From: a virus
Lineage: Duplodnaviria > Caudoviricetes
DNA length: 31,739 bases
Strand: one strand, 5' to 3'
Virus record (IMG/VR): IMGVR_UViG_3300035164_000012
Coordinates: 1-31,739 of that record
Shown here: positions 1 through 31,739 of the stretch, in pieces
Numbering within the stretch: position 1 is the stretch's first letter
How the letters are laid out: the number at the start of each line of letters is the position of its first letter
Made by a program: the position numbers and the translations under genes
Notes under the pieces: model-generated
Told to the model about the DNA's origin: nothing
Seen by the model: only the letters and a program-made list of their open reading frames with translations
The model's database searches: none

Positions 1-134
1 TCCTAGCGCTGGTGAGGTATCTTCTACTAAGCTTGAAATACCACTACCAGCATTTGCATCTACATAAGCTTTAACTGATTGTTGAGTTGGTACTTTTGTT
101 GCTGAATTACTAGAAAAATTATCTTCATCTACAA
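1..134. repeat. Terminal direct repeat, left copy (assembly circularisation overlap)
   Basis: 9-134 is identical to 31614-31739 (126 bp). 1-8 matches 31606-31613 with 2 mismatches. Implied circle length is 31605 bp. Confidence 0.95.
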
Positions 135-9371: not shown

Positions 9372-11963
9372 TTATGTGGTTACGTCTAAGATTGCAGCAA
9401 ATGACTGTGCGTGACGAACAGCAACATCAAATGCAACTACACCCTTAACAGATGTTAAGTTCTTAGCAAAGTCGTCTGAATCTTCACCAACAGTTATTTC
9501 AATACCAGATCCAAATAGACCTAAGATTGCCTGTGAGAAATCACCCATAACAACAGCAGAACACTCACCGCTAGTACTACCTTTTGTAAGGTTGTTAGGT
9601 ACTTGGTTAGTCATTGCTAAAGGATATCCGTTTACTGCTAATGGTGTACCGCCTCTACCAATCGCTGTAAGATCAGTATTAACTAAGAAAGCACCATCAG
9701 TTGCACTAGATCCACCTGCTCTTAGTTTCTTTAATGCACCGATAACTTTAGCGTTTGTTACATAAGAAATAGAATCAGGGTTAACACCTGCATTATCTTC
9801 CATGATTGCAGTTTCTAGATCTACTAATGCTTCTACTGTGATTGCACCACCATTTGTACCCATCGCCACACTTCCGATTCCCGAAGTCTGCATAATACCT
9901 GTAGGCTGTCCTGATGAACCAGTACCATTGAGAATACCTAAGTCAATTCCTACGTTGATCCCCGCTTGGAGGTCTGACCTCACAATTTGTTCAATTCCAG
10001 GAGTTGCTTGAATAAGCATATTTCTAGAATACTTAGACAATGTACCAAGTGTTTTAGGTGTCATTGTAACCTGATCAAATGTTGATTCAGCCTGTGATAA
10101 TGCACCTGTTTCAGAACTTAAGTATCCTGTTGAAGCAACACCTGATCTTCTAGGTATCGCAACATCACCAATTAAACCTGATAATGTTTGTACACCTAAA
10201 CCAACCATGACAGTACTATTACGCAATGCCTCGATGAAGTCATCAGCCATTAAATCAGTAGCAACTATGTTACCGCCAGTAGTAGCACCTGATGTTACAT
10301 AAGTAGCTCTTTTTGCTAATGCTCCAAAAGGTACAAATAATGATCTTCCGCTATTTGATCTTTGAGAATCTTTAGCAATCTGCTGTGAAATCTCTCTTGC
10401 AAAACCACTTCCAGAATTAGACCAATCTCCTGTAAGAAGACCTTTTAATCCAGATGTAATCTTGTAGTCTCTTACATATCTCTCTCTTTCTTTTGGAGAT
10501 AGTTGCTCTTCAATAGGCTTTGCTGTTTCAACAGGCTTTGCATCTATTCTTTCTAAAATAGCTGCTCTACATGAATCTACAGATGAACCATTGTTGATTA
10601 ACTGTTCTGCTAGGTCATCAAAACCACGCTTAGAACACATTGCGTTGATCTCTCTAATTCTTGTACGCTCTGCGGAAGCTGCTTTTTTAGTAGCTTCACT
10701 ACGCACAACTTCTAGATCAAGTTGCTCTTTTTCCATAATTGATTGTTTTTTTGAATTGGGCTGTTGTGCGTCAGTAGACGCTGCGTATACACGCTTACTG
10801 TCTATCATATCTTGTTTTTTAACACTAGGCATAGTGTTTTCATCAATTAATCCTCTACTTATCCCTACATCTGGTGCAGCAGGTGATGCAACTACAGAAA
10901 CTTCATGTGGTTCCCATCTTGTAGCTAAAAATGCATTACTTCCATCTATTTCACGTTCTTCCATCTCTAAAATGCGGTATCCTACGCTAATTGCACTTAA
11001 AATGCCGTCATCTATATCCCTTTTTACTTCCTGTGCCTTTGCATTTCTGCTTAATTCAACAACTGCACGACCTTTTTTCTTATCTTTATCTAAATATGCA
11101 TTTCTTACAATTCCTATAACCTGATCCATATCATGATTCCATAACACAGGTGCAACCCCTCCATTTAACCTACTGAAATCAATAGAACCTGTTTCGTGGC
11201 TTAGTATTTCCGTTCCAAAAGATCTTTCAACAGGGTACTCAGAACTAAAACTAAATTCGTATGTGTTTTCGTCTTTCTCTGAAAAAGATGTTTCACCACT
11301 ACGTTTTAAGACAGTTGTAACACTTCTTAATGAATTTATCTTAGTTAATGTACTGAACTTATGACCTACCTTCACATCTGTTGCCTCAAAATCACCATCT
11401 ACTTCTCTATAAACAGTAATTAATGCAGCAGGGTCATCTTCTGTACCAGTAATTTCAAAATCAGAATCAGGTACATTTATAGTTCCATCACGTTCAATAG
11501 AATCTATAACACCTCTTGCAGTACCACCGCTTGCGTTCCATCTAACTGAATCACCTACAGATAACTCATCTGGTTCTGCACGTTTTGCTGCACGTTTTGT
11601 TTTAGGCATAGCATCATTGTTTCTTAATTCTTTTATTCTAGCTGATTTTGCATCAGAAAAACTTTTACCTGCATCACCGCCCCATGCAGCCCACGCTACT
11701 CTGCCATTACTAGGGTATCCATCTTCACCTGGTCTAAAACCTTCTGCCTCTTTATCAACAGAATGTCTCGCAAACCATGCTGACATAGCGACTACAACAT
11801 CAGGTGATAATTCATTACCGCTTAATATTTGTGTTGCCCTTCTAGCAGCAACTTCTGTACCTCCACCTTCACCTTCTGATTTCCAATCTCTATACCTTTG
11901 CGCCTCCTCTCTCATACCTGCTGTAGGCATAAGGTCTATTTCTGTGCCGTTAATAACTGCCAT
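9372..11963 (-). CDS. Polyprotein: unknown N-domain + Tudor-like domain + HK97-type prohead protease + major capsid protein
   Basis: Protease motifs FSSEYPVER, PVLWNHD, ISVGY, EVSVVASPA. HK97-fold capsid motifs SESTFDQVTMTPKTL-like AESTFDQVTMTPKTLG, GTGSSGQPTGI, GDFSQ, FDVAVRHAQSF. Confidence 0.9.
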   Translation of the reverse strand: MAVINGTEIDLMPTAGMREEAQRYRDWKSEGEGGGTEVAARRATQILSGNELSPDVVVAMSAWFARHSVDKEAEGFRPGEDGYPSNGRVAWAAWGGDAGKSFSDAKSARIKELRNNDAMPKTKRAAKRAEPDELSVGDSVRWNASGGTARGVIDSIERDGTINVPDSDFEITGTEDDPAALITVYREVDGDFEATDVKVGHKFSTLTKINSLRSVTTVLKRSGETSFSEKDENTYEFSFSSEYPVERSFGTEILSHETGSIDFSRLNGGVAPVLWNHDMDQVIGIVRNAYLDKDKKKGRAVVELSRNAKAQEVKRDIDDGILSAISVGYRILEMEEREIDGSNAFLATRWEPHEVSVVASPAAPDVGISRGLIDENTMPSVKKQDMIDSKRVYAASTDAQQPNSKKQSIMEKEQLDLEVVRSEATKKAASAERTRIREINAMCSKRGFDDLAEQLINNGSSVDSCRAAILERIDAKPVETAKPIEEQLSPKERERYVRDYKITSGLKGLLTGDWSNSGSGFAREISQQIAKDSQRSNSGRSLFVPFGALAKRATYVTSGATTGGNIVATDLMADDFIEALRNSTVMVGLGVQTLSGLIGDVAIPRRSGVASTGYLSSETGALSQAESTFDQVTMTPKTLGTLSKYSRNMLIQATPGIEQIVRSDLQAGINVGIDLGILNGTGSSGQPTGIMQTSGIGSVAMGTNGGAITVEALVDLETAIMEDNAGVNPDSISYVTNAKVIGALKKLRAGGSSATDGAFLVNTDLTAIGRGGTPLAVNGYPLAMTNQVPNNLTKGSTSGECSAVVMGDFSQAILGLFGSGIEITVGEDSDDFAKNLTSVKGVVAFDVAVRHAQSFAAILDVTT

Positions 11964-16615: not shown

Positions 16616-17290
16616 CTACTTGGCAGTAGCTATAGCCTTAGACATTGCCTTGTTAAAGTGTTGGTCAAACCTACGCTGTACGACCTTACCTGCTATTGCA
16701 TCTAAGTTAAAGCGACCTGTGTAGTTAGGTTTGTTTGTAGTTGCAACAAAGTATGGAAACAACTGTTCTCTTGACCTTCTATATATACCTGGAGGCTTAC
16801 CTTGATTATGTGCAGGTGTACCAATAAAGAAACCACCTCGGGGATTACCACTAATACCTTTTGTTGTTCGCTTTAATGTTGAACGTGTTACGTTACCATG
16901 CCTATCTGTTTTAACAAAAGATGTAGGAATAAAAAAGCTTTTAGGTGGTATAGTGCCATCATCCTTAAGTCCACCAAAGTATAATTCAAATCCTTTAGGT
17001 AATCTAACACCTCCCTTGACACCATATCTTAAATACTTTGAGGCTTTATCTTTTGCAAATATATGTGAGACTAATGCAGTTTTTTTAGACTTAGATACTA
17101 GAAATGCTTTTTGTGTAAACTTTGTAGGCTGATCAAAAGCACCTAGTGTACCCTTACCTAGTGCAGTTTTAACATCAAATGCAGTATTGTTTATAGCTAC
17201 AGATGTAGCGAAAGGTAATTGTTTTCTATTGTTATTTAGAAATCTATCAAAGCCTTTTAGGTCTTGATCTATAGATAGTTGTATACCCAT
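16616..17290 (-). CDS. Neck / tail completion protein (gpZ-like)
   Basis: KQLPFATSVAINNTA...FDQPTKFT motif, basic protein ending ..FNKAMSKAIATAK. Confidence 0.65.
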   Translation of the reverse strand: MGIQLSIDQDLKGFDRFLNNNRKQLPFATSVAINNTAFDVKTALGKGTLGAFDQPTKFTQKAFLVSKSKKTALVSHIFAKDKASKYLRYGVKGGVRLPKGFELYFGGLKDDGTIPPKSFFIPTSFVKTDRHGNVTRSTLKRTTKGISGNPRGGFFIGTPAHNQGKPPGIYRRSREQLFPYFVATTNKPNYTGRFNLDAIAGKVVQRRFDQHFNKAMSKAIATAK

Positions 17291-17634
17291 TAGAAAGGTA
17301 TTGTAGCTGTCTCTTCTACTATAGTTGGTTGTGTTTGCTCACGCTTCTCTGGTAATACAAAGTTGTTTACATTAACTCTTAGTTGTTTTCTTTTTTGTCC
17401 ATCTTCTGTTTCATATGTTGTGTACTCAGCATCACCTGATATTGCTACTAAGCTTCCCTTTTTATAAGCATCTACTATAAGCTCCCATCTCTTACCCCAT
17501 ACCTGACAATCTATAAAAGATGTTCTATCCCTGCCATGTGATACGGCTATTGTAAATGATGCAAGATCATAAGCCCCTGCTTTTTTATATTCAGCGTCTT
17601 TTGTTAAACGCCCTGCGATTGATACATTAAACAT
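17290..17634 (-). CDS. ssb: Single-stranded DNA-binding protein
   Basis: IAGRLTKDAE, FTIAV, TSFIDCQVWGK, KKGSLV, C-terminal IPF. Confidence 0.92.
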   Translation of the reverse strand: MFNVSIAGRLTKDAEYKKAGAYDLASFTIAVSHGRDRTSFIDCQVWGKRWELIVDAYKKGSLVAISGDAEYTTYETEDGQKRKQLRVNVNNFVLPEKREQTQPTIVEETATIPF

Positions 17635-17821
17635 TGTTATCTGGTAAATAGTTTGAGATCAGGTAATTAATACCTGATGAGTAGGAATAATTGTTAGCTT
17701 TGCACCAATCTCTAAATTTTTTGTGATTAATGTGCGTAAGTTTTGAAGATACCAGAAAGCGGTTTTTCCAGTTAGAGGCAGCAACATCAATAGGTCTAGT
17801 TTCAAGTGGTTCATCAATCAT
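17627..17821 (-). CDS. Small putative ribbon-helix-helix DNA-binding protein
   Basis: Strand-helix-helix pattern FLVSSKL / HKKFRDWCKAN / SYSSGINYLISNYL. Confidence 0.45.
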   Translation of the reverse strand: MIDEPLETRPIDVAASNWKNRFLVSSKLTHINHKKFRDWCKANNYSYSSGINYLISNYLPDNNV

Positions 17822-18507
17822 GTGTTAACAGATAGCCATTCTTCTATAAAAGTAACGTGTTTAGGTTTTGTTATGTTATCTGATAACTTTTTGTTTCTAT
17901 CAAAATCAAACTCTATATATAAAGCATCAGCTAATGTGTTGTAGAGTTTTTTATCTTTAACAAGTAGCTTACCTACTATCTGTAGATAATATTGTTTAGT
18001 TTCATCATCTAACAACGTAGGCATACCTACAGCCTTATTATGTTTATCTATAAGTGCTTTATAGTTTTCATCAGGTAAAGGTATTGGTTTGTTTTTGTTT
18101 ATAGGTGTTACTTTCTCAGGAGTTGGATTAGCAAAATCACCATCATTATCGGGAATACCTGCGTTTTGTCCTAATATGCCAAGCTCGCAATATCTTCGGA
18201 AATAAGTTAATGCACCACCTTCTGCGTGTATAGGATTACCTCTTGTTTCTTTTATTAATGGTAATAAATATTTAGATGCAACTATTTCTCCTGATATGTG
18301 CATAAGGTTAGTTACTAATACATTTCTACCTTCTAGTATTTCTGTTGTATGTATTACGACTAATCCATTTCTAGCTAATACAGGATTTACTACAGATAAT
18401 ACACTTGATAAATCAGCAAACTTACCAAACTGTGCATTAGCTTTTTCTTCTATAGTTCCAACTTCTTGTATGAACTTACAAAGTGCTTTTGTTATTTCTT
18501 TAGTCAT
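17818..18507 (-). CDS. erf: ERF-family single-strand annealing protein
   Basis: KFADLSSVL...PVL..NGL, LMHISGE, GGALTYFRRY, DNDG motifs. Start moved to the ATG at 18507, which overlaps the upstream stop region. Confidence 0.85.
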   Translation of the reverse strand: MTKEITKALCKFIQEVGTIEEKANAQFGKFADLSSVLSVVNPVLARNGLVVIHTTEILEGRNVLVTNLMHISGEIVASKYLLPLIKETRGNPIHAEGGALTYFRRYCELGILGQNAGIPDNDGDFANPTPEKVTPINKNKPIPLPDENYKALIDKHNKAVGMPTLLDDETKQYYLQIVGKLLVKDKKLYNTLADALYIEFDFDRNKKLSDNITKPKHVTFIEEWLSVNT

Positions 18508-18601
18508 TAAGTTGTTTTGCAGCTTCAATAATTTGTTTACCTAGTTGTTCATTTGTCCAGGATTCTCTTTTTGCTACAAGATACCAATCTTTAGCTGTCA
18601 T
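18500..18601 (-). CDS. Tiny hypothetical protein (33 aa)
   Basis: ATG after an A-rich leader, MTAKDWYLVAKRESWTNEQLGKQ..., coupled to erf. Confidence 0.5.
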   Translation of the reverse strand: MTAKDWYLVAKRESWTNEQLGKQIIEAAKQLND

Positions 18602-20287: not shown

Positions 20288-20905
20288 ATGGATATAAAAA
20301 ACATACTTGTACAAGATCCATTTGTTGAGTTTTATCCTGGACCACATAAGTACTACGATCTAAAACGTAAATGCTATGTAGCAAGATCTGTTAGTGATGT
20401 AATAAAAACATCTGATTTTGTAAGTAAGAACATGGAATTAGCAGCAGAAAGAGGTACTACAATACATGGTGCTGTGCAAATATGGTGCGAAACAGGTGAC
20501 AAGGCACTAGCACTAGCCTATGCAAAAGATTATGCACATTGGGTAGAACATCTTATAAATTACAGAATGTGGGAGACTTGGAAACCTTTAGTAAATGAAC
20601 TAAGAATGATAGATAGAAAAAGAGATATTGCAGGTAGTTGTGATGTTGTTTTACAGCATAAAGAAACTGGTATGCTTTGCCTTGCTGACTATAAAACACA
20701 GGAAAAATACAGCAAAAAGAACCATAGTTTACAAATGGGTGGTTATGTTAGTTTGCTTTATCAAAACTATCCTTCTATAACTTTATTTAGTTGCAGGGTT
20801 ATTTATATAACACCTGATGGCATAAAAACACAGGAATATAACCCTAATGAATGTATGTATGACTATGAACAGGCTAGAAAGTTATATTTTAAAAAATCTA
20901 CTTAA
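20288..20905 (+). CDS. PD-(D/E)XK exonuclease (RecB/Cas4-like)
   Basis: AAERGTTIH, E, AGSCD, LADYKT, LQMGGY motifs. Confidence 0.85.
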   Translation: MDIKNILVQDPFVEFYPGPHKYYDLKRKCYVARSVSDVIKTSDFVSKNMELAAERGTTIHGAVQIWCETGDKALALAYAKDYAHWVEHLINYRMWETWKPLVNELRMIDRKRDIAGSCDVVLQHKETGMLCLADYKTQEKYSKKNHSLQMGGYVSLLYQNYPSITLFSCRVIYITPDGIKTQEYNPNECMYDYEQARKLYFKKST

Positions 20906-21548
20906 TTTTATGTGTATGTTCTACGTTTGGTGGTGTTATTAGCTCTACATCTGCACATATCCTTGCCATCTCTGTACCTTCTTTAAATCGTATACCTTGT
21001 TTTAAATTATCTATACAGGTTTTGGCTCTACTCATTTCAAAGTTAAGACGTTTTGCAGCTAGTGATGCTTCATATAATTCATTTTGTTTTTTCATGGCTT
21101 TCCTACATTCTTTTATAGCTGTTCTATCTAATGGGATTGAAAAAGTAGCAGTGATACCGCCATTAACTGATACATTAGATTGTTTTTGTCCTGTTCTTAC
21201 TTGTTCAAAGTATAATATTTCACCTCTGTAACCAGCATCTACATCACCATCACCTATAGGTTTATTGTCATCATCAAAATTACCTTCTATATCACGTCTT
21301 GAATATACTGGCCTATCAAAATGCGATTCATAAGGTGTTGCAAAGCCATATGTTGTAGAGACGAATGGAGAAATATTTAATGTTGCACCCTGACAGGATA
21401 TTGTGTTCATTTGGTACTGAAACTGCCTAGAAGGAACCACCTGGACGGCTTGATTAACAACCGAACCAGAACTATTACTGGTCGTGTTAACAGAATTAGC
21501 TAAAACAGGGTTATTAAGTAAAAGTAATAAACATAAATATCTTTTCAT
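20898..21548 (-). CDS. Secreted protein, 4 Cys in mature chain, possible outer-membrane protomer
   Basis: Signal peptide MKRYLCLLLLLNNPVLA. Amphipathic strands TLNISPF and GITATFSIPL followed by a long helix. Confidence 0.75.
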   Translation of the reverse strand: MKRYLCLLLLLNNPVLANSVNTTSNSSGSVVNQAVQVVPSRQFQYQMNTISCQGATLNISPFVSTTYGFATPYESHFDRPVYSRRDIEGNFDDDNKPIGDGDVDAGYRGEILYFEQVRTGQKQSNVSVNGGITATFSIPLDRTAIKECRKAMKKQNELYEASLAAKRLNFEMSRAKTCIDNLKQGIRFKEGTEMARICADVELITPPNVEHTHKIK

Positions 21549-21973
21549 TGACTAAAGGTTGATAGCGTATCAGTTACATTTTCAATAGTAGTAGTCCTTA
21601 ATATTTGCGTATAATTAGTAATACCTGGTGTTTCTAATGTCTCGTAGTACATAAAACTTTCACCTTCATTAACAATACTAAATACAGGTTTATTATCTAA
21701 ATTAGGGGAAACATAAGTAGTGCCAACACCCTGTACAGTTGTATCAAGTTTTGTCCAACCAGCAGGAGCTAAATTACCTGTAGAACTTTTTACATTCTCA
21801 CCACCTATTGTTAACTGGTAGCCATTGCGTATATCAAAACTTTTTATGTCCTCAACTGTTGTAGATTTAGTTTCTGATCTTTGCGTTAATACCCCTTGCT
21901 GAAAATTAGGAATTACACTTTGAGCATATACAGGTACGCTAAAAAAACTTAGCAGCAATATAAACCTATACAT
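21545..21973 (-). CDS. Secreted Thr/Ser-rich beta protein
   Basis: Signal peptide MYRFILLLSFFSVPVYA, then VIPNFQQG, ends TLSTFSQ. Confidence 0.75.
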   Translation of the reverse strand: MYRFILLLSFFSVPVYAQSVIPNFQQGVLTQRSETKSTTVEDIKSFDIRNGYQLTIGGENVKSSTGNLAPAGWTKLDTTVQGVGTTYVSPNLDNKPVFSIVNEGESFMYYETLETPGITNYTQILRTTTIENVTDTLSTFSQ

Positions 21974-21981
21974 AGTTATTG

Positions 21982-22485
21982 CTAGTCAACTATTAATGTA
22001 GATGTTACCTGTCCTAATGCTTCAGTATTATGCCCGCCTGCTGTAAGTGTTATTGCATTTGCTGAAGTTATCGTACCTGCCAAATCCCCTGCTGTACCAC
22101 CAGCAATACTTGTAACATTATCAGAAAAATTAGGATTAGTACCAGTTGTAACAGCACTACCTGGTATTGCATCAGCTTGATTATATGACTGACTAAATGT
22201 AAAGCTATTACCTGCTGTTTTTTGAGTAACTGTAATAGATGGAGCAGTAGCTACACCACTTGAGACATTTAATGATCCTAATCCATCACTAACTGTTTGA
22301 CCTGCTGCGGTAGTGTAACTTGTATCCACTCCAGAACCGCTAATGCTATAGCTATTACCTAGTCTTGAAGAAGTTGTACTAGCACCTCCTACTGTAAGTT
22401 TTGTAGAGGCCGTAATGCTGTGGCTTAAATCTGCTAAAACAGGTGTAGAGGCCGTTAAAAGCAGTAAAGCAAATAAATTTTTCAT
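21982..22485 (-). CDS. Secreted Thr/Ser/Gly/Ala-rich beta protein
   Basis: Signal peptide MKNLFALLLLTASTPVLA, FTFSQSYNQADA and AGGTAGDLAGTI motifs. Confidence 0.75.
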   Translation of the reverse strand: MKNLFALLLLTASTPVLADLSHSITASTKLTVGGASTTSSRLGNSYSISGSGVDTSYTTAAGQTVSDGLGSLNVSSGVATAPSITVTQKTAGNSFTFSQSYNQADAIPGSAVTTGTNPNFSDNVTSIAGGTAGDLAGTITSANAITLTAGGHNTEALGQVTSTLIVD

Positions 22486-22491
22486 AAATTA

Positions 22492-22743
22492 CTATTTAGT
22501 AACCTTATTATCTACTAATTTAGCGTTATTACTGTTGTTTACGCCACTTTTCTTATTTCCTACTGAGACCCCGTATGAACCAAGCACCCCCGAAACCAGG
22601 CCAGCGGTAAAGGCTCCATCAATTCTTACCTTACCCATGTATCCAAGAGTCATCATTGATAAACTCCAAGTCAAAATCAGAAATCGGATAGCGTGACCAA
22701 ATATTTCACCCCATTCAATCCCTTCTTTTTCTTTTTCTTCCAT
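22492..22743 (-). CDS. Two-TM membrane protein (holin-like topology)
   Basis: Hydrophobic segments IRFLILTWSLSMMTLGYM and AFTAGLVSGVLGSYGV, with charged termini. Confidence 0.7.
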   Translation of the reverse strand: MEEKEKEGIEWGEIFGHAIRFLILTWSLSMMTLGYMGKVRIDGAFTAGLVSGVLGSYGVSVGNKKSGVNNSNNAKLVDNKVTK

Positions 22744-22789
22744 AGTTAACTACTTGGGTTATTATAAATATAGACATAAACTAAAGATA

Positions 22790-23020
22790 ATGGTGGAAGT
22801 TATAGCTGCTACAGGTGGTGCATTGCTTACGGCTTGTTTTGTATCAGTCGGTTCTATATCTTATAGAGGTAGGCAGTCTAGAGATGACTTAGTAAGAAAT
22901 ACAACAGCTATAGAATTATTAACAGATAAAATTGACGATATGCAAGACAATATGAAAGAAATTTTCCATAGGCTTAAGGAAGTAGAACTTGCCGTTGCAG
23001 AAATTAAGCCCAGGAGGTAA
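22790..23020 (+). CDS. Single-TM coiled-coil protein (76 aa)
   Basis: ATG at 22790 preferred to TTG at 22754. N-terminal TM, then heptads IELLTDKIDDMQDNMKEIFHRLKEVE. Confidence 0.7.
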   Translation: MVEVIAATGGALLTACFVSVGSISYRGRQSRDDLVRNTTAIELLTDKIDDMQDNMKEIFHRLKEVELAVAEIKPRR

Positions 23021-23069
23021 AAAAGGCTGTCTAGCTTTGCGATGGGGATTAAACAGCCCTAGATGACCA
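23019..23069 (-). ncRNA. Candidate ~50-nt small RNA with C-rich loop and intrinsic terminator
   Basis: 9-bp stem GGCUGUUUA/UAGACAGCC (the G-U pair works only on the minus strand), 16-nt loop, U6 tail, promoter immediately upstream. Confidence 0.55.
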
Positions 23070-23074
23070 TTTTT

Positions 23075-23103
23075 AATTTAACGTCTACAATATGTTTGTA
23101 AAG
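23075..23103 (-). promoter_or_regulatory. Promoter CTTTACAAAC-N13-TAAATT for candidate sRNA
   Basis: Same decamer, same spacing and same GT before the -10 as at 18858-18886. Confidence 0.55.
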
Positions 23104-23115
23104 CAAAACAAAGTT

Positions 23116-23280
23116 ATGTACAAAATTTTAAAACCTATACTGCTACGCTTTCTTACATCTACAGGTTGTAAAAGATTAATTGTAGATTTACTAAGGTCAA
23201 TTTGTAAGCAGACAACAAATACTTTAGATGATAAGGCTGTAGATATGTTAGAACAGCAATTATTTCCTAAATTAAATTAG
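23116..23280 (+). CDS. Small amphipathic-helix protein (54 aa)
   Basis: MYKILKPILLRFL...KRLIVDLL.....TTNTLDD.AV pattern, of a type recalled from cyanophages. Confidence 0.7.
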   Translation: MYKILKPILLRFLTSTGCKRLIVDLLRSICKQTTNTLDDKAVDMLEQQLFPKLN

Positions 23281-23285
23281 ACAAT

Positions 23286-23305
23286 AAAAAACCCCTTATG
23301 GGGTT
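23286..23305 (-). terminator. Rho-independent terminator ending the putative early operon
   Basis: AACCCC-ATAA-GGGGTT followed by TTTT on the minus strand, at a convergence point. Confidence 0.8.
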
Positions 23306-25035: not shown

Positions 25036-25647
25036 TTAGAATAAACTTAGTTGTTCTACTGGTATCGGTAGTCTGTTTTCATCACCCCATTGATCTCCGA
25101 ATGCATTTGCAATACCATCAAATGTCATACTTCTATTTTTTGCATTATTATCTTTTGCATACCAGGCAGGTAATTTTTTACCACTAGGAGATATATAAAA
25201 TTCACCCTTATCTACTATTTTTGTAGGTCTAAGTAATGGTAAATTCTTTAACCATAAACAGGTAGATTTTTGGTATGGATCTCCATATTCATAAGGTTGT
25301 ATTATCTGATCTGGTGGCCTAATTGCACTACTTATAACAGATATAGGATTTTCTATACACCATCTTGGTATGTTGCAGTTCATAAGTAAACGTACAAAAT
25401 CTAATGCTTCTTTCTGTTCTTTCTTTTTTCTATAAAAGTGTTTAGCACCACTACAAGCAAGGTGCTGACAACTAGGATGTGCCACCATTAAATCAAAACC
25501 ATCATTGATAATATCTCTTACATCACCCTGATAATGTTTACCTGGTCTTTCTGTTGGTAAAAAATCACAACTTATAGCATCATGTCCATTTCTAATAAAA
25601 CTGTCTCTTGTCTTACCGCTATATTCACAGGCTACCAATACCTTCAT
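25036..25647 (-). CDS. DNA cytosine-5 methyltransferase-like protein (short phage type)
   Basis: VLVACEYSG (motif I variant), DLMVAHPSC (motif IV), IENP (motif VI), K.TCLWL, RS.TF.GIA.A...QW (motif X). Confidence 0.75.
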   Translation of the reverse strand: MKVLVACEYSGKTRDSFIRNGHDAISCDFLPTERPGKHYQGDVRDIINDGFDLMVAHPSCQHLACSGAKHFYRKKKEQKEALDFVRLLMNCNIPRWCIENPISVISSAIRPPDQIIQPYEYGDPYQKSTCLWLKNLPLLRPTKIVDKGEFYISPSGKKLPAWYAKDNNAKNRSMTFDGIANAFGDQWGDENRLPIPVEQLSLF

Positions 25648-25985
25648 TTTATTAATCTTGCATACTGTTCAATAGTCATAACAACACGCCAATTATCACC
25701 TTCTTTGCATCCAGGTCTTTTATTAAATCTAACCATAGTTATAGCATGGTCTACTTTTGCATTTAGTCTTTGCTGTTCTGCTTCTCTAGGTTTTCTAAGT
25801 ACTGCTTCACTTTTATTTTTCATATCCGTTACTTGTACAACAGTATTAGGTATTCCTATGAGATCCCCCTTGTCTAACTCCATACCTGCCCCGAAACGTC
25901 TTTCAACTATATGACCTGTAGCTGCTGATAGATATATACAGGCTTCTCTTTCTGCCCTATCGCCCTTATTCTTTTGTAAGTTCAT
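25644..25985 (-). CDS. Hjc-like Holliday junction resolvase / nuclease-fold protein
   Basis: KNKGDRAERE, DKGDLIG and WRVVMT motifs. The expected ExK reads QVT. Confidence 0.6.
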   Translation of the reverse strand: MNLQKNKGDRAEREACIYLSAATGHIVERRFGAGMELDKGDLIGIPNTVVQVTDMKNKSEAVLRKPREAEQQRLNAKVDHAITMVRFNKRPGCKEGDNWRVVMTIEQYARLIK

Positions 25986-26800: not shown

Positions 26801-27499
26801 TTAGCTATTTTTATTTAATTTACTCTTGATAGGCTTTTTTCCTTCAAACTTTGTACCTTTTTTATTAAATAGTTTTTTGAATCTTCCTATAAGCTGTTTA
26901 AACAATGGTTTTAGAACTCTATTTAACAAAGGTGTTAATGTAGCAGCCGTTGTTGCGACTACTGTTATAGCGAATGTTGAGCTAACTGTATTTATGCTTG
27001 GTAGGTATTTTTCAACTGCTGACGTGCTAGCCCACTGTACTACACATTCTTTTGTTTCTTCTACCCATACAAAACCAGTTACTTTTTCTGTACCTTTTGC
27101 ATTTAAATCACCAATTCTAGGGTTATTCTTTTTAGGGTCTGGACACTCTACCTTATTTTCTTCTGGTATTTTAGGTACTTTTGGCTCTTCTAAATCAGTT
27201 TCAGGTGCTTCTACGTTTGTAGGTGGTTTTGCTTCCTCTACAAGCAATATTTTTTTCTTGTCATACTGCAAGGGTACATAAGAAGGCAATGGACACACAA
27301 ACCTATTACCGCTAGGGTCATCTATAAATAACTGATTGTTTTTTGTACCATCATTTCTAAAGGTAACGCATGGCATTGATAGTGTTGGCGGCAATGTCCT
27401 TGTTATATGCTTTGTATTAGGTAAAGATTGCTCTACAGGTATATTTATAATTGGTATGCGTGGTATTGCTGAACTAGGTATTGTATCTATTTCTGGCAT
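26801..27499 (-). CDS. Pro-rich, 4-Cys protein with C-terminal membrane anchor
   Basis: Pro-rich N-terminal two-thirds, two Cys pairs, hydrophobic TFAITVVATTAATLTPLL, amphipathic basic tail. Confidence 0.75.
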   Translation of the reverse strand: MPEIDTIPSSAIPRIPIINIPVEQSLPNTKHITRTLPPTLSMPCVTFRNDGTKNNQLFIDDPSGNRFVCPLPSYVPLQYDKKKILLVEEAKPPTNVEAPETDLEEPKVPKIPEENKVECPDPKKNNPRIGDLNAKGTEKVTGFVWVEETKECVVQWASTSAVEKYLPSINTVSSTFAITVVATTAATLTPLLNRVLKPLFKQLIGRFKKLFNKKGTKFEGKKPIKSKLNKNS

Positions 27500-27732
27500 T
27501 AGATACTAAGCTTAGTTTTTGGTTTTGCAGGTAATGCAGGTTGTGTAAATCTTGGTATTTCTTTGTTTATTAAATTAGGCATATTACCTGTTAGTTCATC
27601 TAATATTTGTTTTTTAATTTTTTCTTGTCCTTTTGGACTTGTTATGTACTTGTAACCAAAGTAAACTGTAGTAATAGAGCCTAGTGTTAACACAAATGTA
27701 ATACAGGCAATAGCATTAATTATTTTTTGCAT
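27499..27732 (-). CDS. N-terminal TM protein with Pro-rich tail (77 aa)
   Basis: MQKIINAIACITFVLTLGSITTVYFGY, TAATG-coupled to the Pro-rich gene. Confidence 0.75.
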   Translation of the reverse strand: MQKIINAIACITFVLTLGSITTVYFGYKYITSPKGQEKIKKQILDELTGNMPNLINKEIPRFTQPALPAKPKTKLSI

Positions 27733-27865
27733 GATAAAACAAGCATTTTTAAAGGCATTAGTACCTGTAACTATTATAACTTTTATGGCTTTATGTGCTA
27801 TAGCTCCATTATGGGTCAGCTTGTCTTTAATGACAAAGCAAATAGAAAAGCATAAGGTTAATTAA
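27731..27865 (+). CDS. Small single-TM protein (44 aa)
   Basis: Not in the ORF track. MIKQAFLKALVPVTIITFMALCAIAPLWVSLSLMTKQIEKHKVN fills the whole gap between two minus-strand genes. Confidence 0.6.
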   Translation: MIKQAFLKALVPVTIITFMALCAIAPLWVSLSLMTKQIEKHKVN

Positions 27866-28509: not shown

Positions 28510-28902
28510 TTATTTTTGATTTGCTATGTAATTTATAAATTCTTCTGACAATAAAAACATCCATTTTCCATCTATTATTTTATTTTTAGTTAATGTATTA
28601 CTTAAATATGTCGAATCGACATCAGATGTTTTCAAAAAAGTATCAATACTATCTTGTGAAACATGACCTGTAATAACATTTTTCGTTATTAAACTATTTA
28701 TTATATTTTTTGCTTCCTCTTCAGTAAATCCAGAATCTAATACATCTTGAGAAGTAAAAGTAATACCATATCCAGCACCATTAACACTTGAATCTATATT
28801 TAAATAACCTTTTGAAGAGTCTGTAAACTTACTAAAATCTATAGTGCCACATTCAGCAACTTTTAATTCATCTTCTAATAAATTACTAAAATTATCTGTC
28901 AT
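28510..28902 (-). CDS. Hypothetical acidic protein
   Basis: 130 aa, very AT-rich, TAATG-coupled to the oxygenase. Confidence 0.65.
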   Translation of the reverse strand: MTDNFSNLLEDELKVAECGTIDFSKFTDSSKGYLNIDSSVNGAGYGITFTSQDVLDSGFTEEEAKNIINSLITKNVITGHVSQDSIDTFLKTSDVDSTYLSNTLTKNKIIDGKWMFLLSEEFINYIANQK

Positions 28903-29456
28903 TATCTAAAATTCCTTCCGTTCATCCATGCTACTAAACTATATCTTGTACCTTTAGTTATTGGTTTAACCCTATGTTTAACCCATGCAGGGAAAATAGC
29001 TACAGTTCCAGCTTTTAACTCAACTGTGAATGATTCCATTTGCATTGGGTTAGCTATCTCTAACTCACCGCCCTCGAAATCGTCATTTAGTAATAATGAC
29101 ATTGATAATTTTCTAGAATAATCCTCTTTATTATTAGATTTTACTGGAAGCATATCTGTATGCCAACCATAATAATCATTTAAACCATATCTAGTAACTT
29201 GTATTCCAGAATCAAAATGGTTCAAATCATAATTAAAATAGTGATTATTTGCACTTATAAAAATATTGTGAATAATACCAGCAATCCATGTATCCCATTG
29301 TAGCCAGTGTTGTTTAGATTGCCTTGCATATTGACCTTCAGTTTGAAAAGTTTTACTATCTACAAAATGTAAATTTTTACATTGATTATACATTTCATTT
29401 AGTATTATTTTTGGTAGTTTCGGATCTACAGTATATAAAAATTTTTCAGTAAACAT
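28902..29456 (-). CDS. 2OG-Fe(II) oxygenase (prolyl-4-hydroxylase / PKHD-like)
   Basis: WHTD (HxD), RKLSMSLLLNDDFEGGEL, HRVKP (distal His), GTRYSLVAW (RxS). Confidence 0.92.
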   Translation of the reverse strand: MFTEKFLYTVDPKLPKIILNEMYNQCKNLHFVDSKTFQTEGQYARQSKQHWLQWDTWIAGIIHNIFISANNHYFNYDLNHFDSGIQVTRYGLNDYYGWHTDMLPVKSNNKEDYSRKLSMSLLLNDDFEGGELEIANPMQMESFTVELKAGTVAIFPAWVKHRVKPITKGTRYSLVAWMNGRNFR

Positions 29457-30355
29457 TAGGGTGCATTACCTGTAAGGGTTCCTGAGTTGCTTAAAGTATA
29501 ACTAACGCCAGATAATTCAATATATTTACCGCCTGCCCCTCCATTACTACGATCAGAATTTGTCCCAGCATTACCAAATGAACCGCCTGCCCCTCCATTA
29601 CTACCAGTACCACCTGCTGTGGGTGCTTGAGCATAAAAAGGACTAAATAAAGCGCAAAGCGCAGCATTGTCACTACCATAACTACCCTGTGGATTTATAG
29701 CGCCACCTGGTGCGCCTGCTTGTCCGCTAGTTGCAGGGCTGTTATAACCTTGACCATTACCACCATTACCACCTGCACCACCTGCACCTCCATAACACTG
29801 CAAAGCACCATCAATATAACCATTTGTACCTGGGCCGCCATCATTACCTTTACCGCCTCCACCTCCGCCGCCTCTAATAGTACCTGAGTTAGTAACAGTT
29901 ACATTTGAGGAAGCAATAAAAATAGCTGAACCGCCAGCACCGCCAGCATTTGAATTAGTACTACCTGCACCACCTGCCCCTGATATAGTTCCAGCGTTTT
30001 GTATATTAAGAGTTCCACCCATACCTGAAGGAACTGTTATTGCTCTGTTACCAGTGCCACCTGTAGCACCAATTTCAGCACCAATAGGAATAACTAAAAT
30101 CTTAGTTGTATTTGAAGTAAAATTACTACTGCCAAATTCAGTAGATACATTCACGTTAGTATCACCATTACTTAAGGTTTCAGTTAAGGCTGCTGAAGCA
30201 CCATACCATTCACTAAAACTCATTGTAGCTTCAGAACTTTTACTAATTAAAGCTCTTATATCTGAATCATTTAATGAAGCTTGTGTACCAGATGAGCCAC
30301 CTGCCTCAATATGAATTTCATTAAGACTAATAGCTCCTGAACTAGGTAATGCCAT
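29456..30355 (-). CDS. Glycine-rich tail-fibre tip adhesin (T-even gp38-like)
   Basis: Short N-domain ending SFSEWYG, then LNIQNAGTISGAGGAG, GGAGGSAI, NSGTIRGGGGGGG and further GGxGG motifs. Directly follows the S74 fibre. Confidence 0.75.
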   Translation of the reverse strand: MALPSSGAISLNEIHIEAGGSSGTQASLNDSDIRALISKSSEATMSFSEWYGASAALTETLSNGDTNVNVSTEFGSSNFTSNTTKILVIPIGAEIGATGGTGNRAITVPSGMGGTLNIQNAGTISGAGGAGSTNSNAGGAGGSAIFIASSNVTVTNSGTIRGGGGGGGKGNDGGPGTNGYIDGALQCYGGAGGAGGNGGNGQGYNSPATSGQAGAPGGAINPQGSYGSDNAALCALFSPFYAQAPTAGGTGSNGGAGGSFGNAGTNSDRSNGGAGGKYIELSGVSYTLSNSGTLTGNAP

Positions 30356-31739
30356 TATTTAGCCCTTTTAAATTCTTCGACTTCTACTTTTAACTCTTTT
30401 ATAGCTTCTATAAGAACGCCTACCATTTTTCCATAATCAACAGATTGAACATCTTTTCCATGATGTGTACTTGTTTGTACAACTTCAGGTATTATTTCCT
30501 CTACTTCTTGTGCAATAACACCAATACTAGGCTGATTATTTTCTTTCCATTTATATGAAACACCTCTTAATTTTCTAACAGTGCTAAGTGCATTTTTAAT
30601 TGTTGATACATCTTTTTTAAGTTTAATATCAGAAAATGCAGTAATATTACCTGTAGCAGTTAAAGCACCTGTAACTGTTACACCTGCACTTGTAGTTTCA
30701 AACTTTTTACTGTTGTCGTAACGTAACTCTACAGTTCCATTAGGTACAAATTTAGCTATAGCGTCAGAATTATGTAAAATTTCTAAATTAAAAGCATTAG
30801 CTAAATTAATAGCATTAATAGTTGTATTATGATAAATTTCTAGATCGGTTCCAGCACCAAATAGTAGCTTTTTATGATCAGCAATAAAAACACTATCAGA
30901 AACATCTAATATTCCTGTTATATCTACGCCGTTGCTTTTTGTTTCTAGTTTTGTACTGTTGTCATATCTAAGTTGTACTTTGCCATTAGCAATGGCGTAA
31001 ATCATATATTCATTGCCAGCTTGATTTAAAATATAAATTGTATCTTGTTCAAGGAATAAAGGCCTACTATTTAGTGATTGTAGATAGTTACTATTATCTG
31101 ATAGATTGTGATAAATTTCTAAATCTGACCCTGTACCAAATATTGCTTTTCTATTATCTTGGAACAATAGGTTGCCACCATTTCCTAGTGACATTCTTAA
31201 GTTGTTATTAGTATAAAATTCTAATGATCCAGCATTTTCCTGTAACTTAGGACTAAAACCATCTGGGTTAGAGAAAAATATTGCTCCACCATCAGTACCA
31301 ACAGTTAAATTTCCAAAAAGTTGTGCACCCGCACTTTGAGTCTCAAACTTTTTACTGTTGTCGTAGTATAACTGTACGTTTCCATCATGGGTAACAATAA
31401 TTCCATCTTCATTGTCATGTGGTTGTATATAGATATTACTACCAACATCTGAATTTACGTTAGTTCTAATCGCTAAATGACCTGTATTATTATCTAAGTA
31501 TGTATTAGTTCCGTTGTGGTAAATTACAAAATCTCCACTATTACCAAACTGTACTGAGTTGCTGTCATCAATATTAATATTATGACCATTCGCATCTAAA
31601 GCACCACCTAGCTCTGGTGAGGTATCTTCTACTAAGCTTGAAATACCACTACCAGCATTTGCATCTACATAAGCTTTAACTGATTGTTGAGTTGGTACTT
31701 TTGTTGCTGAATTACTAGAAAAATTATCTTCATCTACAA
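30355..31739 (-). CDS. Tail fibre, C-terminal part with S74 intramolecular chaperone
   Basis: Frame is open from the window edge to 30355 (the track starts it at an internal Met at 31194). Three IYHN...YDNSxKxET modules, cleavage motif AFSDIKLKKDV, GVIAQEV, VDYGK, terminal coiled coil. Confidence 0.9.
   Translation of the reverse strand, partial: VDEDNFSSNSATKVPTQQSVKAYVDANAGSGISSLVEDTSPELGGALDANGHNINIDDSNSVQFGNSGDFVIYHNGTNTYLDNNTGHLAIRTNVNSDVGSNIYIQPHDNEDGIIVTHDGNVQLYYDNSKKFETQSAGAQLFGNLTVGTDGGAIFFSNPDGFSPKLQENAGSLEFYTNNNLRMSLGNGGNLLFQDNRKAIFGTGSDLEIYHNLSDNSNYLQSLNSRPLFLEQDTIYILNQAGNEYMIYAIANGKVQLRYDNSTKLETKSNGVDITGILDVSDSVFIADHKKLLFGAGTDLEIYHNTTINAINLANAFNLEILHNSDAIAKFVPNGTVELRYDNSKKFETTSAGVTVTGALTATGNITAFSDIKLKKDVSTIKNALSTVRKLRGVSYKWKENNQPSIGVIAQEVEEIIPEVVQTSTHHGKDVQSVDYGKMVGVLIEAIKELKVEVEEFKRAK
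31606..31739. repeat. Terminal direct repeat, right copy
   Basis: Matches 1-134, exact over the last 126 bp. Confidence 0.95.

What the first reader, a model, noticed from the sequence alone, without database searches (positions are those of the whole stretch)
20898..23280. Phage-encoded cell-envelope apparatus: three co-transcribed secreted proteins plus membrane partners
Seen: an operon of a 2-TM protein and three proteins with near-identical Sec signal ends (P-V-L/Y-A): 167 aa and 142 aa Thr/Ser-rich all-beta chains, and a 216-aa chain with 4 mature Cys. A TM coiled-coil gene and an amphipathic-helix gene are divergent from it, and three more membrane genes lie at 26801-27865. About 3.4 kb of a 31.6-kb genome goes to exported proteins that would not assemble in the cytoplasm with virions. 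Recalled, unverified: similar genes cluster in T4-like cyanomyoviruses as hypotheticals, implying a module shared between unrelated phages. Inference: a multi-component envelope machine, such as a surface fibre or plug with its own outer-membrane pore (superinfection exclusion, grazer evasion, aggregation) or a non-canonical lysis/egress system.
Basis: partly seen in the sequence, partly recalled or inferred. Interest (0 to 1): 0.85.

Follow-up and report, generated by a model that had tools for sequence, protein, structure and literature searches.

The report
Cyanophage exported-protein envelope gene cassette
This marine siphovirus carries a six-gene cassette of exported and membrane proteins that it shares with unrelated phages of ocean cyanobacteria, that is switched on late in a related phage and was not found in virus particles, and that would most likely act on the host cell envelope when the cell bursts.

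Summary
At 20898-22743 (- strand) four tightly packed genes encode a small two-segment membrane protein (p83) and three proteins with Sec-type signal ends (p167, p142, p216). They belong with p232 and p77 (26801-27732) to one six-gene cassette. In 87 related loci these six lie together as two convergent operons. The cassette occurs in T4-like cyanomyoviruses, T7-like cyanopodoviruses and two siphovirus lineages. It is the [quoted passage not shown] that Sullivan et al. noted in 2010 and left unexplained.

- All three secreted families keep a signal-peptide-like N-terminus.
- p167 and p142 are distant paralogues.
- The p216 model is a beta domain plus a 42-residue helix, with no solved relative.
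- The P-HM2 orthologues are mostly late genes.
- None is listed among virion proteins of S-SM1 or Syn9.
- Five cassette-bearing genomes lack the common endolysin families.
- In two podoviruses a reduced cassette sits beside a terminase gene.

My best reading is a late-acting envelope module for lysis or egress, at about 0.4. That function is inferred and not shown.

The parts
22492..22743 (-). p83: 83-aa small membrane protein with an acidic N-terminus, two moderately hydrophobic segments and a basic tail (Pfam DUF6450, phrog_21865/721). Orthologue of P-HM2 PHM2_191 (T4-GC 218).
   Evidence: synteny; orthologue position
21982..22485 (-). p167: Sec-signal protein rich in Ser, Thr, Gly and Ala, predicted all-beta (phrog_564). 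It is labelled 'OMP1' in some cyanophage records and is the orthologue of PHM2_197 (T4-GC 237).
21545..21973 (-). p142: Sec-signal protein (Pfam DUF6322, phrog_650) and a distant paralogue of p167. Orthologue of PHM2_196 (T4-GC 236). It is part of the reduced core found in podoviruses.
20898..21548 (-). p216 ('gp165' family, phrog_848/1755): Sec-signal protein with a beta domain, a 42-residue helix in heptad register and three conserved Cys. Orthologue of PHM2_195 (T4-GC 235).
26801..27499 (-). p232 ('gp164' family, phrog_570): conserved N-terminal domain with four Cys, a Pro-rich linker, a C-terminal hydrophobic segment and a strongly basic tail. Orthologue of PHM2_194 (T4-GC 234). In most relatives it lies convergent to p216.
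27499..27732 (-). p77 (phrog_568, labelled 'plasmid stability' in databases): N-terminal transmembrane segment plus a basic tail. Orthologue of PHM2_192 (T4-GC 414).
23092..23280 (+). p62 (phrog_2738): small amphipathic-helix protein that accompanies the cassette in siphoviruses and sits next to the reduced cassette in T7-like cyanopodoviruses.
22754..23020 (+). p88: N-terminal transmembrane segment followed by a predicted helical, charged segment. It is divergent from p83 and was found only in this siphovirus group (59 loci). An internal ATG at 22791 is the more likely start.
27731..27865 (+). p44: 44-aa single-transmembrane peptide next to p77. Present in this siphovirus group and in MED4-117.
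22744..22790 (.). AT-rich divergent intergenic region between p83 and p88. It would hold the promoters of the two units.
   Evidence: sequence; no consensus sigma-70 site was found here, so the promoter role is inferred
23290..23305 (-). GC-rich hairpin followed by a T run. It is terminator-like for leftward transcription coming from 23427 onward and would insulate the cassette region.

Best explanation
The region is one half of a conserved six-gene cassette of three Sec-exported proteins and three small membrane proteins. It would most likely build a late-acting complex in the cyanobacterial cell envelope that helps to break or open the envelope when progeny phage are released.

Shown directly:
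- the gene set, its signal-peptide-like ends and its hydrophobic segments;
- strong purifying selection on p216, p142 and p83;
- conserved synteny as two convergent operons in cyanomyoviruses, podoviruses and two siphovirus lineages.

Taken from papers:
- the P-HM2 orthologues are late genes, except the p216 orthologue, which is middle;
- none of the cassette's gene clusters is listed among virion proteins of S-SM1, Syn9 or S-PM2.

Inferred mechanism:
- p83, which is holin-like in size and layout, together with p77 and p232 would sit in the inner membrane. Their basic tails would face the cytoplasm. The Pro-rich linker of p232 would reach across the periplasm.
- p216 would oligomerise through its long helix and its cysteines.
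- The paralogous beta proteins p142 and p167 would lie in the periplasm or at the outer membrane.
- Together they would act at lysis, for instance as a spanin-like or outer-membrane-opening device.

No step of that mechanism was tested here.
For: 1. Exported and membrane character. The three N-termini have signal-peptide features. These features are kept in 204/211 p167 and 213/231 p142 homologues and are visible before the conserved mature N-terminus of most p216 homologues sampled.

2. One functional unit.
- The commonest order is p167>p142>p216> <p232 <p77 <p83, seen in 87 loci.
- Among the 72 loci with enough flank, the three secreted genes are in 72, p232 in 69, p83 in 62, p77 in 59 and all six in 56. 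The loci were chosen by a p216 match, so these counts are conditional on p216.
- The set occurs in P-HM2, in an Oinezvirus podovirus and in the cultured Prochlorococcus siphovirus MED4-117.
- A reduced set of p83, p142, p216 and p62 occurs in the T7-like phages NATL2A-133 and P-SCSP1u.

3. Timing in P-HM2 (Thompson 2016, supplementary file 6): PHM2_191 Late, 192 Late, 193 Late, 194 Late, 195 Mid, 196 Late in light and Mid in dark, 197 Late.

4. Not virion parts. None of T4-GC 218, 219, 234-237 or 414 appears in Sullivan 2010 Table S8, which covers the S-SM1, Syn9 and S-PM2 virion proteomes.

5. No other lysis candidates.
- No endolysin or holin family was recognised in any window ORF.
- Seven peptidoglycan-hydrolase Pfam families were searched in five cassette-bearing genomes. 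The only hit was SLT inside a 961-aa ORF of P-SCSP1u. The control for PF00182 was silent, so that family is uninformative.

6. Position. In NATL2A-133 the reduced cassette lies immediately before the small terminase gene, and in P-SCSP1u it lies beside the large terminase gene. From established knowledge of the T7 map, T7 keeps its holin and spanin genes around genes 18 and 19.

7. Shape of p216. The mature model has pLDDT 80, a beta domain at 26-121 and a helix at 124-165. In one heptad register 10 of 12 a/d positions are hydrophobic or small. Cys130, Cys160 and Cys180 are 90-100% conserved.

8. Restricted to viruses. Only 10 loci were found in 185,579 species genomes. Nine of them carry at least four of the six families and the tenth three.
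Against: - No muralytic domain, lipobox or known holin or spanin family was found in any of the six proteins.
- S-PM2 lacks the cluster according to Sullivan 2010 yet is a lytic phage, so the cassette is not universally needed for lysis.
- Late timing comes from one phage, P-HM2, and its p216 orthologue is a middle gene.
- Absence from virion proteomes is a detection-limit argument from one table.
- The topology of p232 is unclear. It has no signal peptide (1 of 245 by my rule), yet it has four conserved Cys in the N-terminal part.
- p83 is only weakly hydrophobic.
- The p167 model is poor, with pLDDT 65.
- No interaction was tested.
- The positional argument rests on two podovirus genomes.
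Confidence: 0.4

Rival explanations
1. The cassette is an envelope remodelling or superinfection-exclusion module. The exported proteins would coat or block receptors or the periplasmic DNA-entry route, so that further phages, or progeny re-adsorbing to debris, are excluded.
For: The proteins are exported or membrane-bound. p167 is the fastest evolving of the secreted proteins, with median dN/dS 0.255, as expected of a surface-exposed protein. The cassette is mobile across phage lineages that share hosts. Phage-encoded outer-membrane proteins that block receptors are discussed for other phages in a 2026 preprint, of which I read passages.
Against: From established knowledge, known exclusion genes such as T4 imm and sp are early genes and single proteins. 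Here five of the six P-HM2 orthologues are late in the light, and the set has six conserved parts. It is kept in small T7-like genomes beside a terminase gene.
Confidence: 0.2
2. The cassette is an auxiliary envelope or transport module that serves host physiology during infection, for example by changing nutrient or ion passage. That would be in line with its place next to psbA, hli and other host-like genes in myoviruses.
For: In cyanomyoviruses the cluster lies beside psbA, psbD and hli. Cyanophages are reported to carry other exported host-like proteins, namely pstS (Sullivan 2010 passage) and the DUF680 OMP-like family.
Against: There are no cellular homologues: only 10 loci in 185,579 species genomes, nine of them with at least four of the six families. 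The neighbouring hli03 is Mid (B) in P-HM2 whereas the cassette is mostly Late. No transporter or porin family matched.
Confidence: 0.12
3. The proteins are low-copy virion or morphogenesis factors, such as fibre chaperones or decoration proteins. The hydrophobic N-termini would then not be functional signal peptides.
For: The genes are co-expressed with structural genes in P-HM2. p167 is a Ser/Thr/Gly-rich beta protein like many fibre proteins. In the Oinezvirus record the cassette lies about 1.2 kb from a fibre gene.
Against: The cassette's gene clusters are not listed in the virion proteomes of S-SM1 and Syn9, which both encode the cluster. The signal-like N-termini with AxA-type sites are conserved across lineages even though the sequence itself drifts. 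The same cassette serves myo-, podo- and siphoviruses with unrelated tails.
Confidence: 0.05
4. The cassette is a selfish mobile element that persists through its own addiction or stability function, as the 'plasmid stability' label and Sullivan's mobility idea suggest.
For: [quoted passage not shown] The position of the cassette varies between lineages, and in the window it is split in two.
Against: The 'plasmid stability' label sits on a 77-aa membrane protein with no supporting domain match. In the p142 tree the versions group by virus lineage, which does not suggest recent spread (FastTree only). Purifying selection on six co-ordered genes argues for a function useful to the phage.
Confidence: 0.05

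Closest known systems
Cyanomyovirus cassette of hypothetical proteins T4-GC 218, 219, 234, 235, 237 plus 'plasmid stability' protein (Sullivan et al. 2010, PMC3037559)
   Same: It is the same genes. The P-HM2 orthologues carry T4-GC 218, 414, 234, 235, 236 and 237. The paper reports the cluster in 15 of 16 cyanomyoviruses and suspects a shared function.
   Different: In the passages I read, the paper gives no function and mentions no export signals. Here the set is shown to consist of exported and membrane proteins and to extend to podoviruses and two siphovirus lineages. Its Fig. S9 is in a ppt file that could not be read.
Two-component spanins (lambda Rz/Rz1, T7 gp18.5/18.7) and unimolecular spanin (T1 gp11)
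   Same: Both are late, non-virion envelope proteins. Features in common are a periplasmic coiled-coil-like helix with conserved Cys (p216), membrane-anchored partners (p232, p77) and a place beside terminase genes in T7-like genomes. The spanin features themselves are from established knowledge.
   Different: None of the signals has a lipoprotein lipobox. There are six parts in place of one or two. The secreted proteins are beta-rich. No spanin family matched.
Class II holins and pinholins
   Same: p83 is small, has two hydrophobic segments (the second rich in Gly, Ala and Ser) and ends in a charged tail. It is late in P-HM2.
   Different: It matched no holin family, only DUF6450. Its hydrophobicity is low. 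No partner endolysin is known.
Curli (type VIII) secretion genes csgA/B and csgE/F/G
   Same: Both have a co-transcribed pair of paralogous secreted beta-rich proteins of about 130-150 residues plus accessory exported proteins.
   Different: No Csg family matched. There are no curlin repeats and no CsgG-like lipoprotein. The resemblance is one of layout only and is recalled.
TonB-ExbB-ExbD and Tol-Pal trans-envelope systems
   Same: Both combine small inner-membrane proteins with a Pro-rich periplasm-spanning protein (p232 linker).
   Different: p232 is anchored at its C-terminus, not its N-terminus. There is no homology. No proton-channel residues were identified.
Cyanophage OMP-like family DUF680 / IPR056410
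   Same: It is another cyanophage-encoded exported protein family thought to sit in the outer membrane (passage).
   Different: It is a different family. None of the cassette proteins matched it in Pfam.

Membership tests
Sullivan-2010 cyanophage cassette (T4-GC 218/219/234/235/237 + 414) | Homology to the named gene clusters | tested here: met
   tblastn of the window proteins on the P-HM2 locus: p216 E 5e-43, p167 6e-18, p142 6e-11, p232 1e-14, p77 5e-6. The T4-GC numbers are in the record's notes.
Sullivan-2010 cyanophage cassette (T4-GC 218/219/234/235/237 + 414) | Clustered arrangement | tested here: met
   87 loci show p167>p142>p216> <p232 <p77 <p83. In the window the set is split into 20898-22743 and 26801-27732.
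Two-component spanin | Outer-membrane lipoprotein with a lipobox Cys | tested here: not met
   The signal ends are ...PVLA|N...PVYA|Q and ...PVLA|D. In a random 40 of the 156 distinct N-termini printed, the p216 homologues end in AxA-type sites.
Two-component spanin | Inner-membrane protein with an N-terminal TMD and a periplasmic coiled coil | tested here: inconclusive
   p88 has this layout but was found only in 59 loci of this siphovirus group. p77 has the TMD but only a short tail.
Holin (class II) | Small protein with two TMDs, a charged C-terminus, encoded in a lysis cassette | tested here: inconclusive
   p83 fits in size and layout. Its segments are weakly hydrophobic, and it matches only DUF6450 and unnamed PHROGs.
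Endolysin (any common family) | A muralytic domain in the cassette or elsewhere in the genome | tested here: not met
   No such family was found in 53 window ORFs. PF00959, PF01510, PF13539, PF01551 and PF00877 gave 0 of 5 genomes. PF01464 gave 1 of 5, inside a 961-aa ORF. PF00182 gave 0 of 5 but its control was silent.
Outer-membrane beta-barrel protein ('OMP1' label) | A closed barrel of amphipathic strands | tested here: inconclusive
   The p167 model has pLDDT 65, shows long terminal strands and no barrel. There were no PDB matches.
Outer-membrane beta-barrel protein ('OMP1' label) | A C-terminal aromatic beta-signal | tested here: not met
   p167 ends in ...STLIVD, and the family consensus ends in ...SExTVx. 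p142 ends in ...STFSQ, with Phe at position -3. The feature itself is recalled knowledge.
Virion structural protein | Detected in purified particles | tested here: not met
   The cassette's T4-GCs are absent from Sullivan 2010 Table S8, of which I read supplement 1 parts 3 and 4. S-SM1 and Syn9 encode the cluster.
T4 Imm/Sp-type superinfection exclusion | Early expression | tested here: not met
   The P-HM2 orthologues are Late or Mid. That T4 imm and sp are early genes is recalled knowledge.
Curli / type VIII secretion | CsgA/B curlin repeats and CsgE/F/G families | tested here: not met
   The Pfam scan of all cassette proteins at E <= 0.01 returned only DUF6322 and DUF6450.

The most novel reading that the evidence does not exclude
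The cassette is the missing lysis and egress machine of marine cyanophages. It would be an envelope-spanning device built from six proteins of unknown folds that opens the Prochlorococcus or Synechococcus envelope without a classical endolysin, holin or lipoprotein spanin. Myo-, podo- and siphoviruses that share these hosts would have exchanged it. It would then set the timing of a large share of oceanic cell lysis.
Probability: 0.3. Interest if true: 0.9.

Novelty: new variant of a known kind. Interest (0 to 1): 0.68.

Why it matters
Prochlorococcus and Synechococcus are the main primary producers of the open ocean, and phage lysis is a major route by which their carbon is released. My literature searches found no paper that names the lysis genes of marine T4-like cyanophages.

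This cassette is nearly universal in cyanomyoviruses. It is kept even in 31-47 kb sipho- and podoviruses, it is under purifying selection, and it has been unexplained since 2010. If it acts at lysis, a long-standing gap would become testable with existing cyanophage genetics. If it acts in exclusion or envelope remodelling, it would be a widespread determinant of phage competition in the sea. In either case six protein families, two of them Pfam DUFs, would gain a context.

Tried and rejected
Searches that found nothing:
- Sequence searches of p216, p142 and p167 against PDB chains found only a chance antibody hit at E 0.21. Profile searches with the p232 and p216 alignments found nothing usable.
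- Foldseek of the low-confidence p167 model found nothing.
- ESM Atlas: for p216 only its own family; for p232 no usable hit.
- NCBIfam returned no hit above its cut-off. PADLOC was not searched.
- The first homologous-protein run listed only near-identical relatives, so the other two were not spent.
Single proteins were used instead.
- Earlier findings of this scan: nothing.
- Rfam and tRNA scans of the window: nothing.
- Sequencing runs: no RNA holder listed, and one doubtful run held 8% of the words.

Not available:
The queue was full, and three calls were made too early and not sent on. No interaction test was made.

Literature:
- 'DUF6322' occurs in 0 papers.
- 'cyanophage' with 'gp165' occurs in 5 papers; the 3 listed were not relevant by title.
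- 'cyanophage' with 'signal peptide', 'outer membrane' and 'hypothetical', with 'T4-GC', with 'endolysin', 'holin' and 'Prochlorococcus' and with 'spanin' gave no listed paper that assigns a function to the cassette.

Set aside:
- The median dN/dS of 1.09 for p232 came from same-length pairs without alignment and is not trusted.
- I first took the convergent PD-(D/E)XK exonuclease gene at 20288-20905 for the 'gp164' partner. tblastn showed that gp164 is the p232 family.

Full report
WHAT THE WINDOW IS. The window is a whole virus record of 31,739 bases, rated 100% complete, with about 33% G+C. It encodes a lambda-type large terminase and portal, a fused protease-capsid protein, a tape measure and tail proteins, so it is a siphovirus. 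The closest large terminase among named phages is that of Synechococcus siphovirus S-CBS3, at 44% identity. Close relatives are numerous in marine viral contigs: 80 loci have p216 at 66-99% identity. No tRNA, Rfam family or integrase was found.

THE OBSERVATION. The four minus-strand genes p83, p167, p142 and p216 are separated by 6 nt, 8 nt and a 4-nt overlap. p167, p142 and p216 start with a short basic stretch, then a hydrophobic run, and end in PVLA, PVYA and PVLA. p216 has four Cys after the signal.

The genes are real. p216 hits 416 phage records and p167 hits 408, all cyanophage or marine. All have PHROG families, and two have Pfam DUFs: DUF6322 for p142 and DUF6450 for p83. Median dN/dS against close relatives is 0.066 for p216, 0.118 for p142, 0.107 for p83 and 0.255 for p167.

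THE REAL UNIT IS SIX GENES. I fetched 292 loci in all. I searched their ORFs with profiles built by three rounds from each window protein. The commonest order, in 87 loci, is p167>p142>p216> <p232 <p77 <p83.

Seventy-two loci have at least 2.5 kb upstream and 3.5 kb downstream of p216. Among them the counts are as follows:

| Family or set | Loci out of 72 |
|---|---|
| p167, p142 and p216 | 72 |
| p232 | 69 |
| p83 | 62 |
| p77 | 59 |
| all six | 56 |

By query group, all six were found in 17/20, 9/10, 16/19 and 14/23 loci. The loci were selected by a p216 match, so these numbers are conditional on p216. Genes lying beyond the flank count as misses.

In many close relatives of the window virus, p232 and p77 follow p216 directly. 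In the window's own variant a PD-(D/E)XK exonuclease gene (20288-20905) takes that place, and p232, p77 and p44 lie at 26801-27865.

WHERE ELSE IT OCCURS.
- In Prochlorococcus myovirus P-HM2 the orthologues are PHM2_197, 196 and 195, convergent to 194, with 192 and 191 in the same leftward unit as 194. Their notes give T4-GC 237, 236, 235, 234, 414 and 218. They lie beside hli and psbA.
- In Synechococcus phages the first gene is sometimes labelled 'OMP1'.
- The full set is in an uncultured Oinezvirus podovirus.
- The full set, with p62 and p44, is also in the cultured Prochlorococcus MED4 siphovirus MED4-117. Its record annotates separate head and portal genes and not the window's fused protease-capsid gene.
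- A reduced set of p83, p142, p216 and p62 is in the T7-like phages NATL2A-133 and P-SCSP1u.
- BFVD lists further T7-like carriers of the p216 fold: P-SSP10, P-SSP3, S-RIP1 and S-TIP37.
- Across 1.84 billion representative proteins, only 199 clusters match p216 at E <= 0.001.
- In one genome for each of 185,579 prokaryote species, only 10 loci match p142. Nine of them carry at least four of the six cassette families and the tenth carries three. They look like phage contigs inside MAGs, single-cell assemblies and one isolate assembly. I found no cellular homologue.
- In a quick p142 tree the window group is one well-supported clade next to the Oinezvirus copy and apart from the myovirus clades. 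That does not suggest recent transfer. The tree is FastTree only and carries long-branch warnings.

PRIOR KNOWLEDGE. Sullivan et al. [quoted passage not shown] They suspected a shared function and mobility. This is the same cassette. I found no later paper that gives it a function in the listings. The library holds only open-access papers, and Fig. S9 of the 2010 paper could not be read.

PROTEIN FEATURES.
- Signals. Signal-like N-termini are kept in 204/211 p167 and 213/231 p142 homologues by a crude rule of mine. Only 73/262 p216 homologues passed that rule. In a random 40 of the 156 distinct upstream stretches printed, most myovirus p216 homologues show a long basic stretch, a hydrophobic run and an AxA-type site just before the conserved mature start.
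- Paralogy. p167 and p142 are distant paralogues. hhalign gives probability 92% and E 6e-7 over 65 columns, and the iterated p167 profile also finds p142 members.
- p216. AlphaFold2 on mature p216 with 62 aligned sequences gives pLDDT 80.4. The model has strands between residues 26 and 121, one helix at 124-165 and a short C-terminal part. In one heptad register the helix has 10 of 12 a/d positions hydrophobic or small. Cys130, Cys160 and Cys180 of the mature chain are 90-100% conserved. No solved structure resembles it.
- p167. The model is poor, at pLDDT 64.9. It is all-beta with long first and last strands and has no matches.
- p232. It has a conserved N-terminal part with the motifs PGCVE.H and CD.G.PSY, a Pro-rich linker, a second Cys pair, a conserved hydrophobic stretch and a tail with 13 basic against 1 acidic residue.
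- p77. It has an N-terminal hydrophobic segment and a basic tail.
- p83. It has an acidic start, two moderately hydrophobic segments (the second rich in Gly, Ala and Ser) and a basic tail.

TIMING AND LOCATION, FROM PAPERS. Supplementary file 6 of Thompson et al. 2016 (PMC5082946; rows read) gives these classes for P-HM2 genes:

| P-HM2 gene | Window counterpart | Light | Dark |
|---|---|---|---|
| PHM2_191 | p83 | Late (E) | Late (D) |
| PHM2_192 | p77 | Late (E) | Late (D) |
| PHM2_193 | none in window | Late (D) | Late (D) |
| PHM2_194 | p232 | Late (D) | Late (D) |
| PHM2_195 | p216 | Mid (C) | Mid (C) |
| PHM2_196 | p142 | Late (D) | Mid (C) |
| PHM2_197 | p167 | Late (E) | Late (E) |
| PHM2_198 (neighbouring hli03) | - | Mid (B) | Mid (B) |

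A field metatranscriptome study lists the p216 orthologue group ('g165') among periodically expressed cyanomyovirus genes (PMC7238727, supplementary table 1). Its class was not stated in the text I read.

Table S8 of Sullivan 2010 lists every gene cluster detected in purified S-SM1, Syn9 or S-PM2 particles. None of the cassette's clusters is in it, although S-SM1 and Syn9 encode the cassette.

MISSING CANONICAL LYSIS GENES. None of the 53 window ORFs scanned matches an endolysin, holin or spanin family (18 of them again). Seven peptidoglycan-hydrolase Pfam families were searched in six frames in five cassette-bearing genomes: the window, P-HM2, MED4-117, P-SCSP1u and NATL2A-133. Six families gave nothing. 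SLT gave one hit, inside a 961-aa ORF of P-SCSP1u. The PF00182 control was silent, so that family says nothing. Distant or novel lysins are not excluded.

INTERPRETATION. The set is exported or membrane-bound, mostly late, not listed among virion proteins, confined to cyanophages and kept in small genomes. In NATL2A-133 the reduced set lies immediately before the small terminase gene, and in P-SCSP1u it lies beside the large terminase gene. From established knowledge of the T7 map, T7 keeps its holin and spanin genes around genes 18 and 19.

I therefore favour a late-acting envelope complex that serves lysis or egress, with confidence about 0.4. In that reading p83 is holin-like, and p232, p77 and p216 are spanin-like in layout but not in family. 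This is inference. Against it:
- No enzyme, lipobox or known lysis family is present.
- S-PM2 lacks the cassette.
- Timing comes from one phage.
- The topology of p232 is unresolved.

The rivals are exclusion or surface remodelling (0.2), a physiological envelope module (0.12), virion or morphogenesis factors (0.05) and a selfish stability element (0.05).

VERDICT. The specific pictures of a fibre, a plug or a pore are untested. The cluster is already in print as an unexplained cassette. What is new here is its envelope character, its wider spread, its late non-virion profile and the lysis hypothesis.

Noticed in passing
window 1-1410 (-) and 30355-31737 (-): Two tail-fibre ORFs run off opposite ends of the window. 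The one at 1-1410 has an ATG start, an Mtd_N domain and an open 3' end. The one at 30355-31737 has an open 5' end and a Peptidase_S74 chaperone domain at its end. They are probably one gene of about 930 aa cut by linearisation of a circular or permuted genome. Two bases at the right end do not fit the frame, and I did not resolve this.
   Followed up: no
window 9372-11963 (-): An 863-aa ORF fuses a TUDOR-like N-terminal piece, an S78 prohead protease and an HK97-type major capsid domain in one frame.
   Followed up: no
window 20288-20905 (+) versus relatives: A PD-(D/E)XK exonuclease gene overlaps the 3' end of p216 by 8 nt, convergently. It is present in 9 of 20 well-flanked relatives. In the others p232-p77 occupy that place. 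So the cassette is split by a rearrangement in the window's variant.
   Followed up: partly
L297 (Nonlabens xiamenensis strain 1Q3, contig of 188,235 bases): An assembly of a flavobacterial isolate holds a 188-kb contig with the whole six-gene cassette in cyanomyovirus order. It may be a T4-like phage contig of unclear origin in that assembly.
   Followed up: no
window, whole: No endolysin, holin, spanin or integrase family was recognised in any ORF scanned. The phage also carries a 2OG-Fe(II) oxygenase (28902-29456), a DNA methyltransferase (25036-25647), RusA (25644-25985), Erf (17818-18528) and SSB (17290-17634).
   Followed up: partly
window 26801-27499 (p232): Same-length comparisons with close relatives give a median dN/dS near 1 for p232, against 0.07-0.25 for the secreted proteins. 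This may reflect the fast-changing Pro-rich linker or unaligned indels. It was not checked with a codon alignment.
   Followed up: no
L302 23960-24124 (-) in MED4-117: An unannotated 54-aa ORF in the GenBank record of MED4-117 matches the p62 family at E 4e-23. It lies just upstream of the cassette, as in the window.
   Followed up: partly
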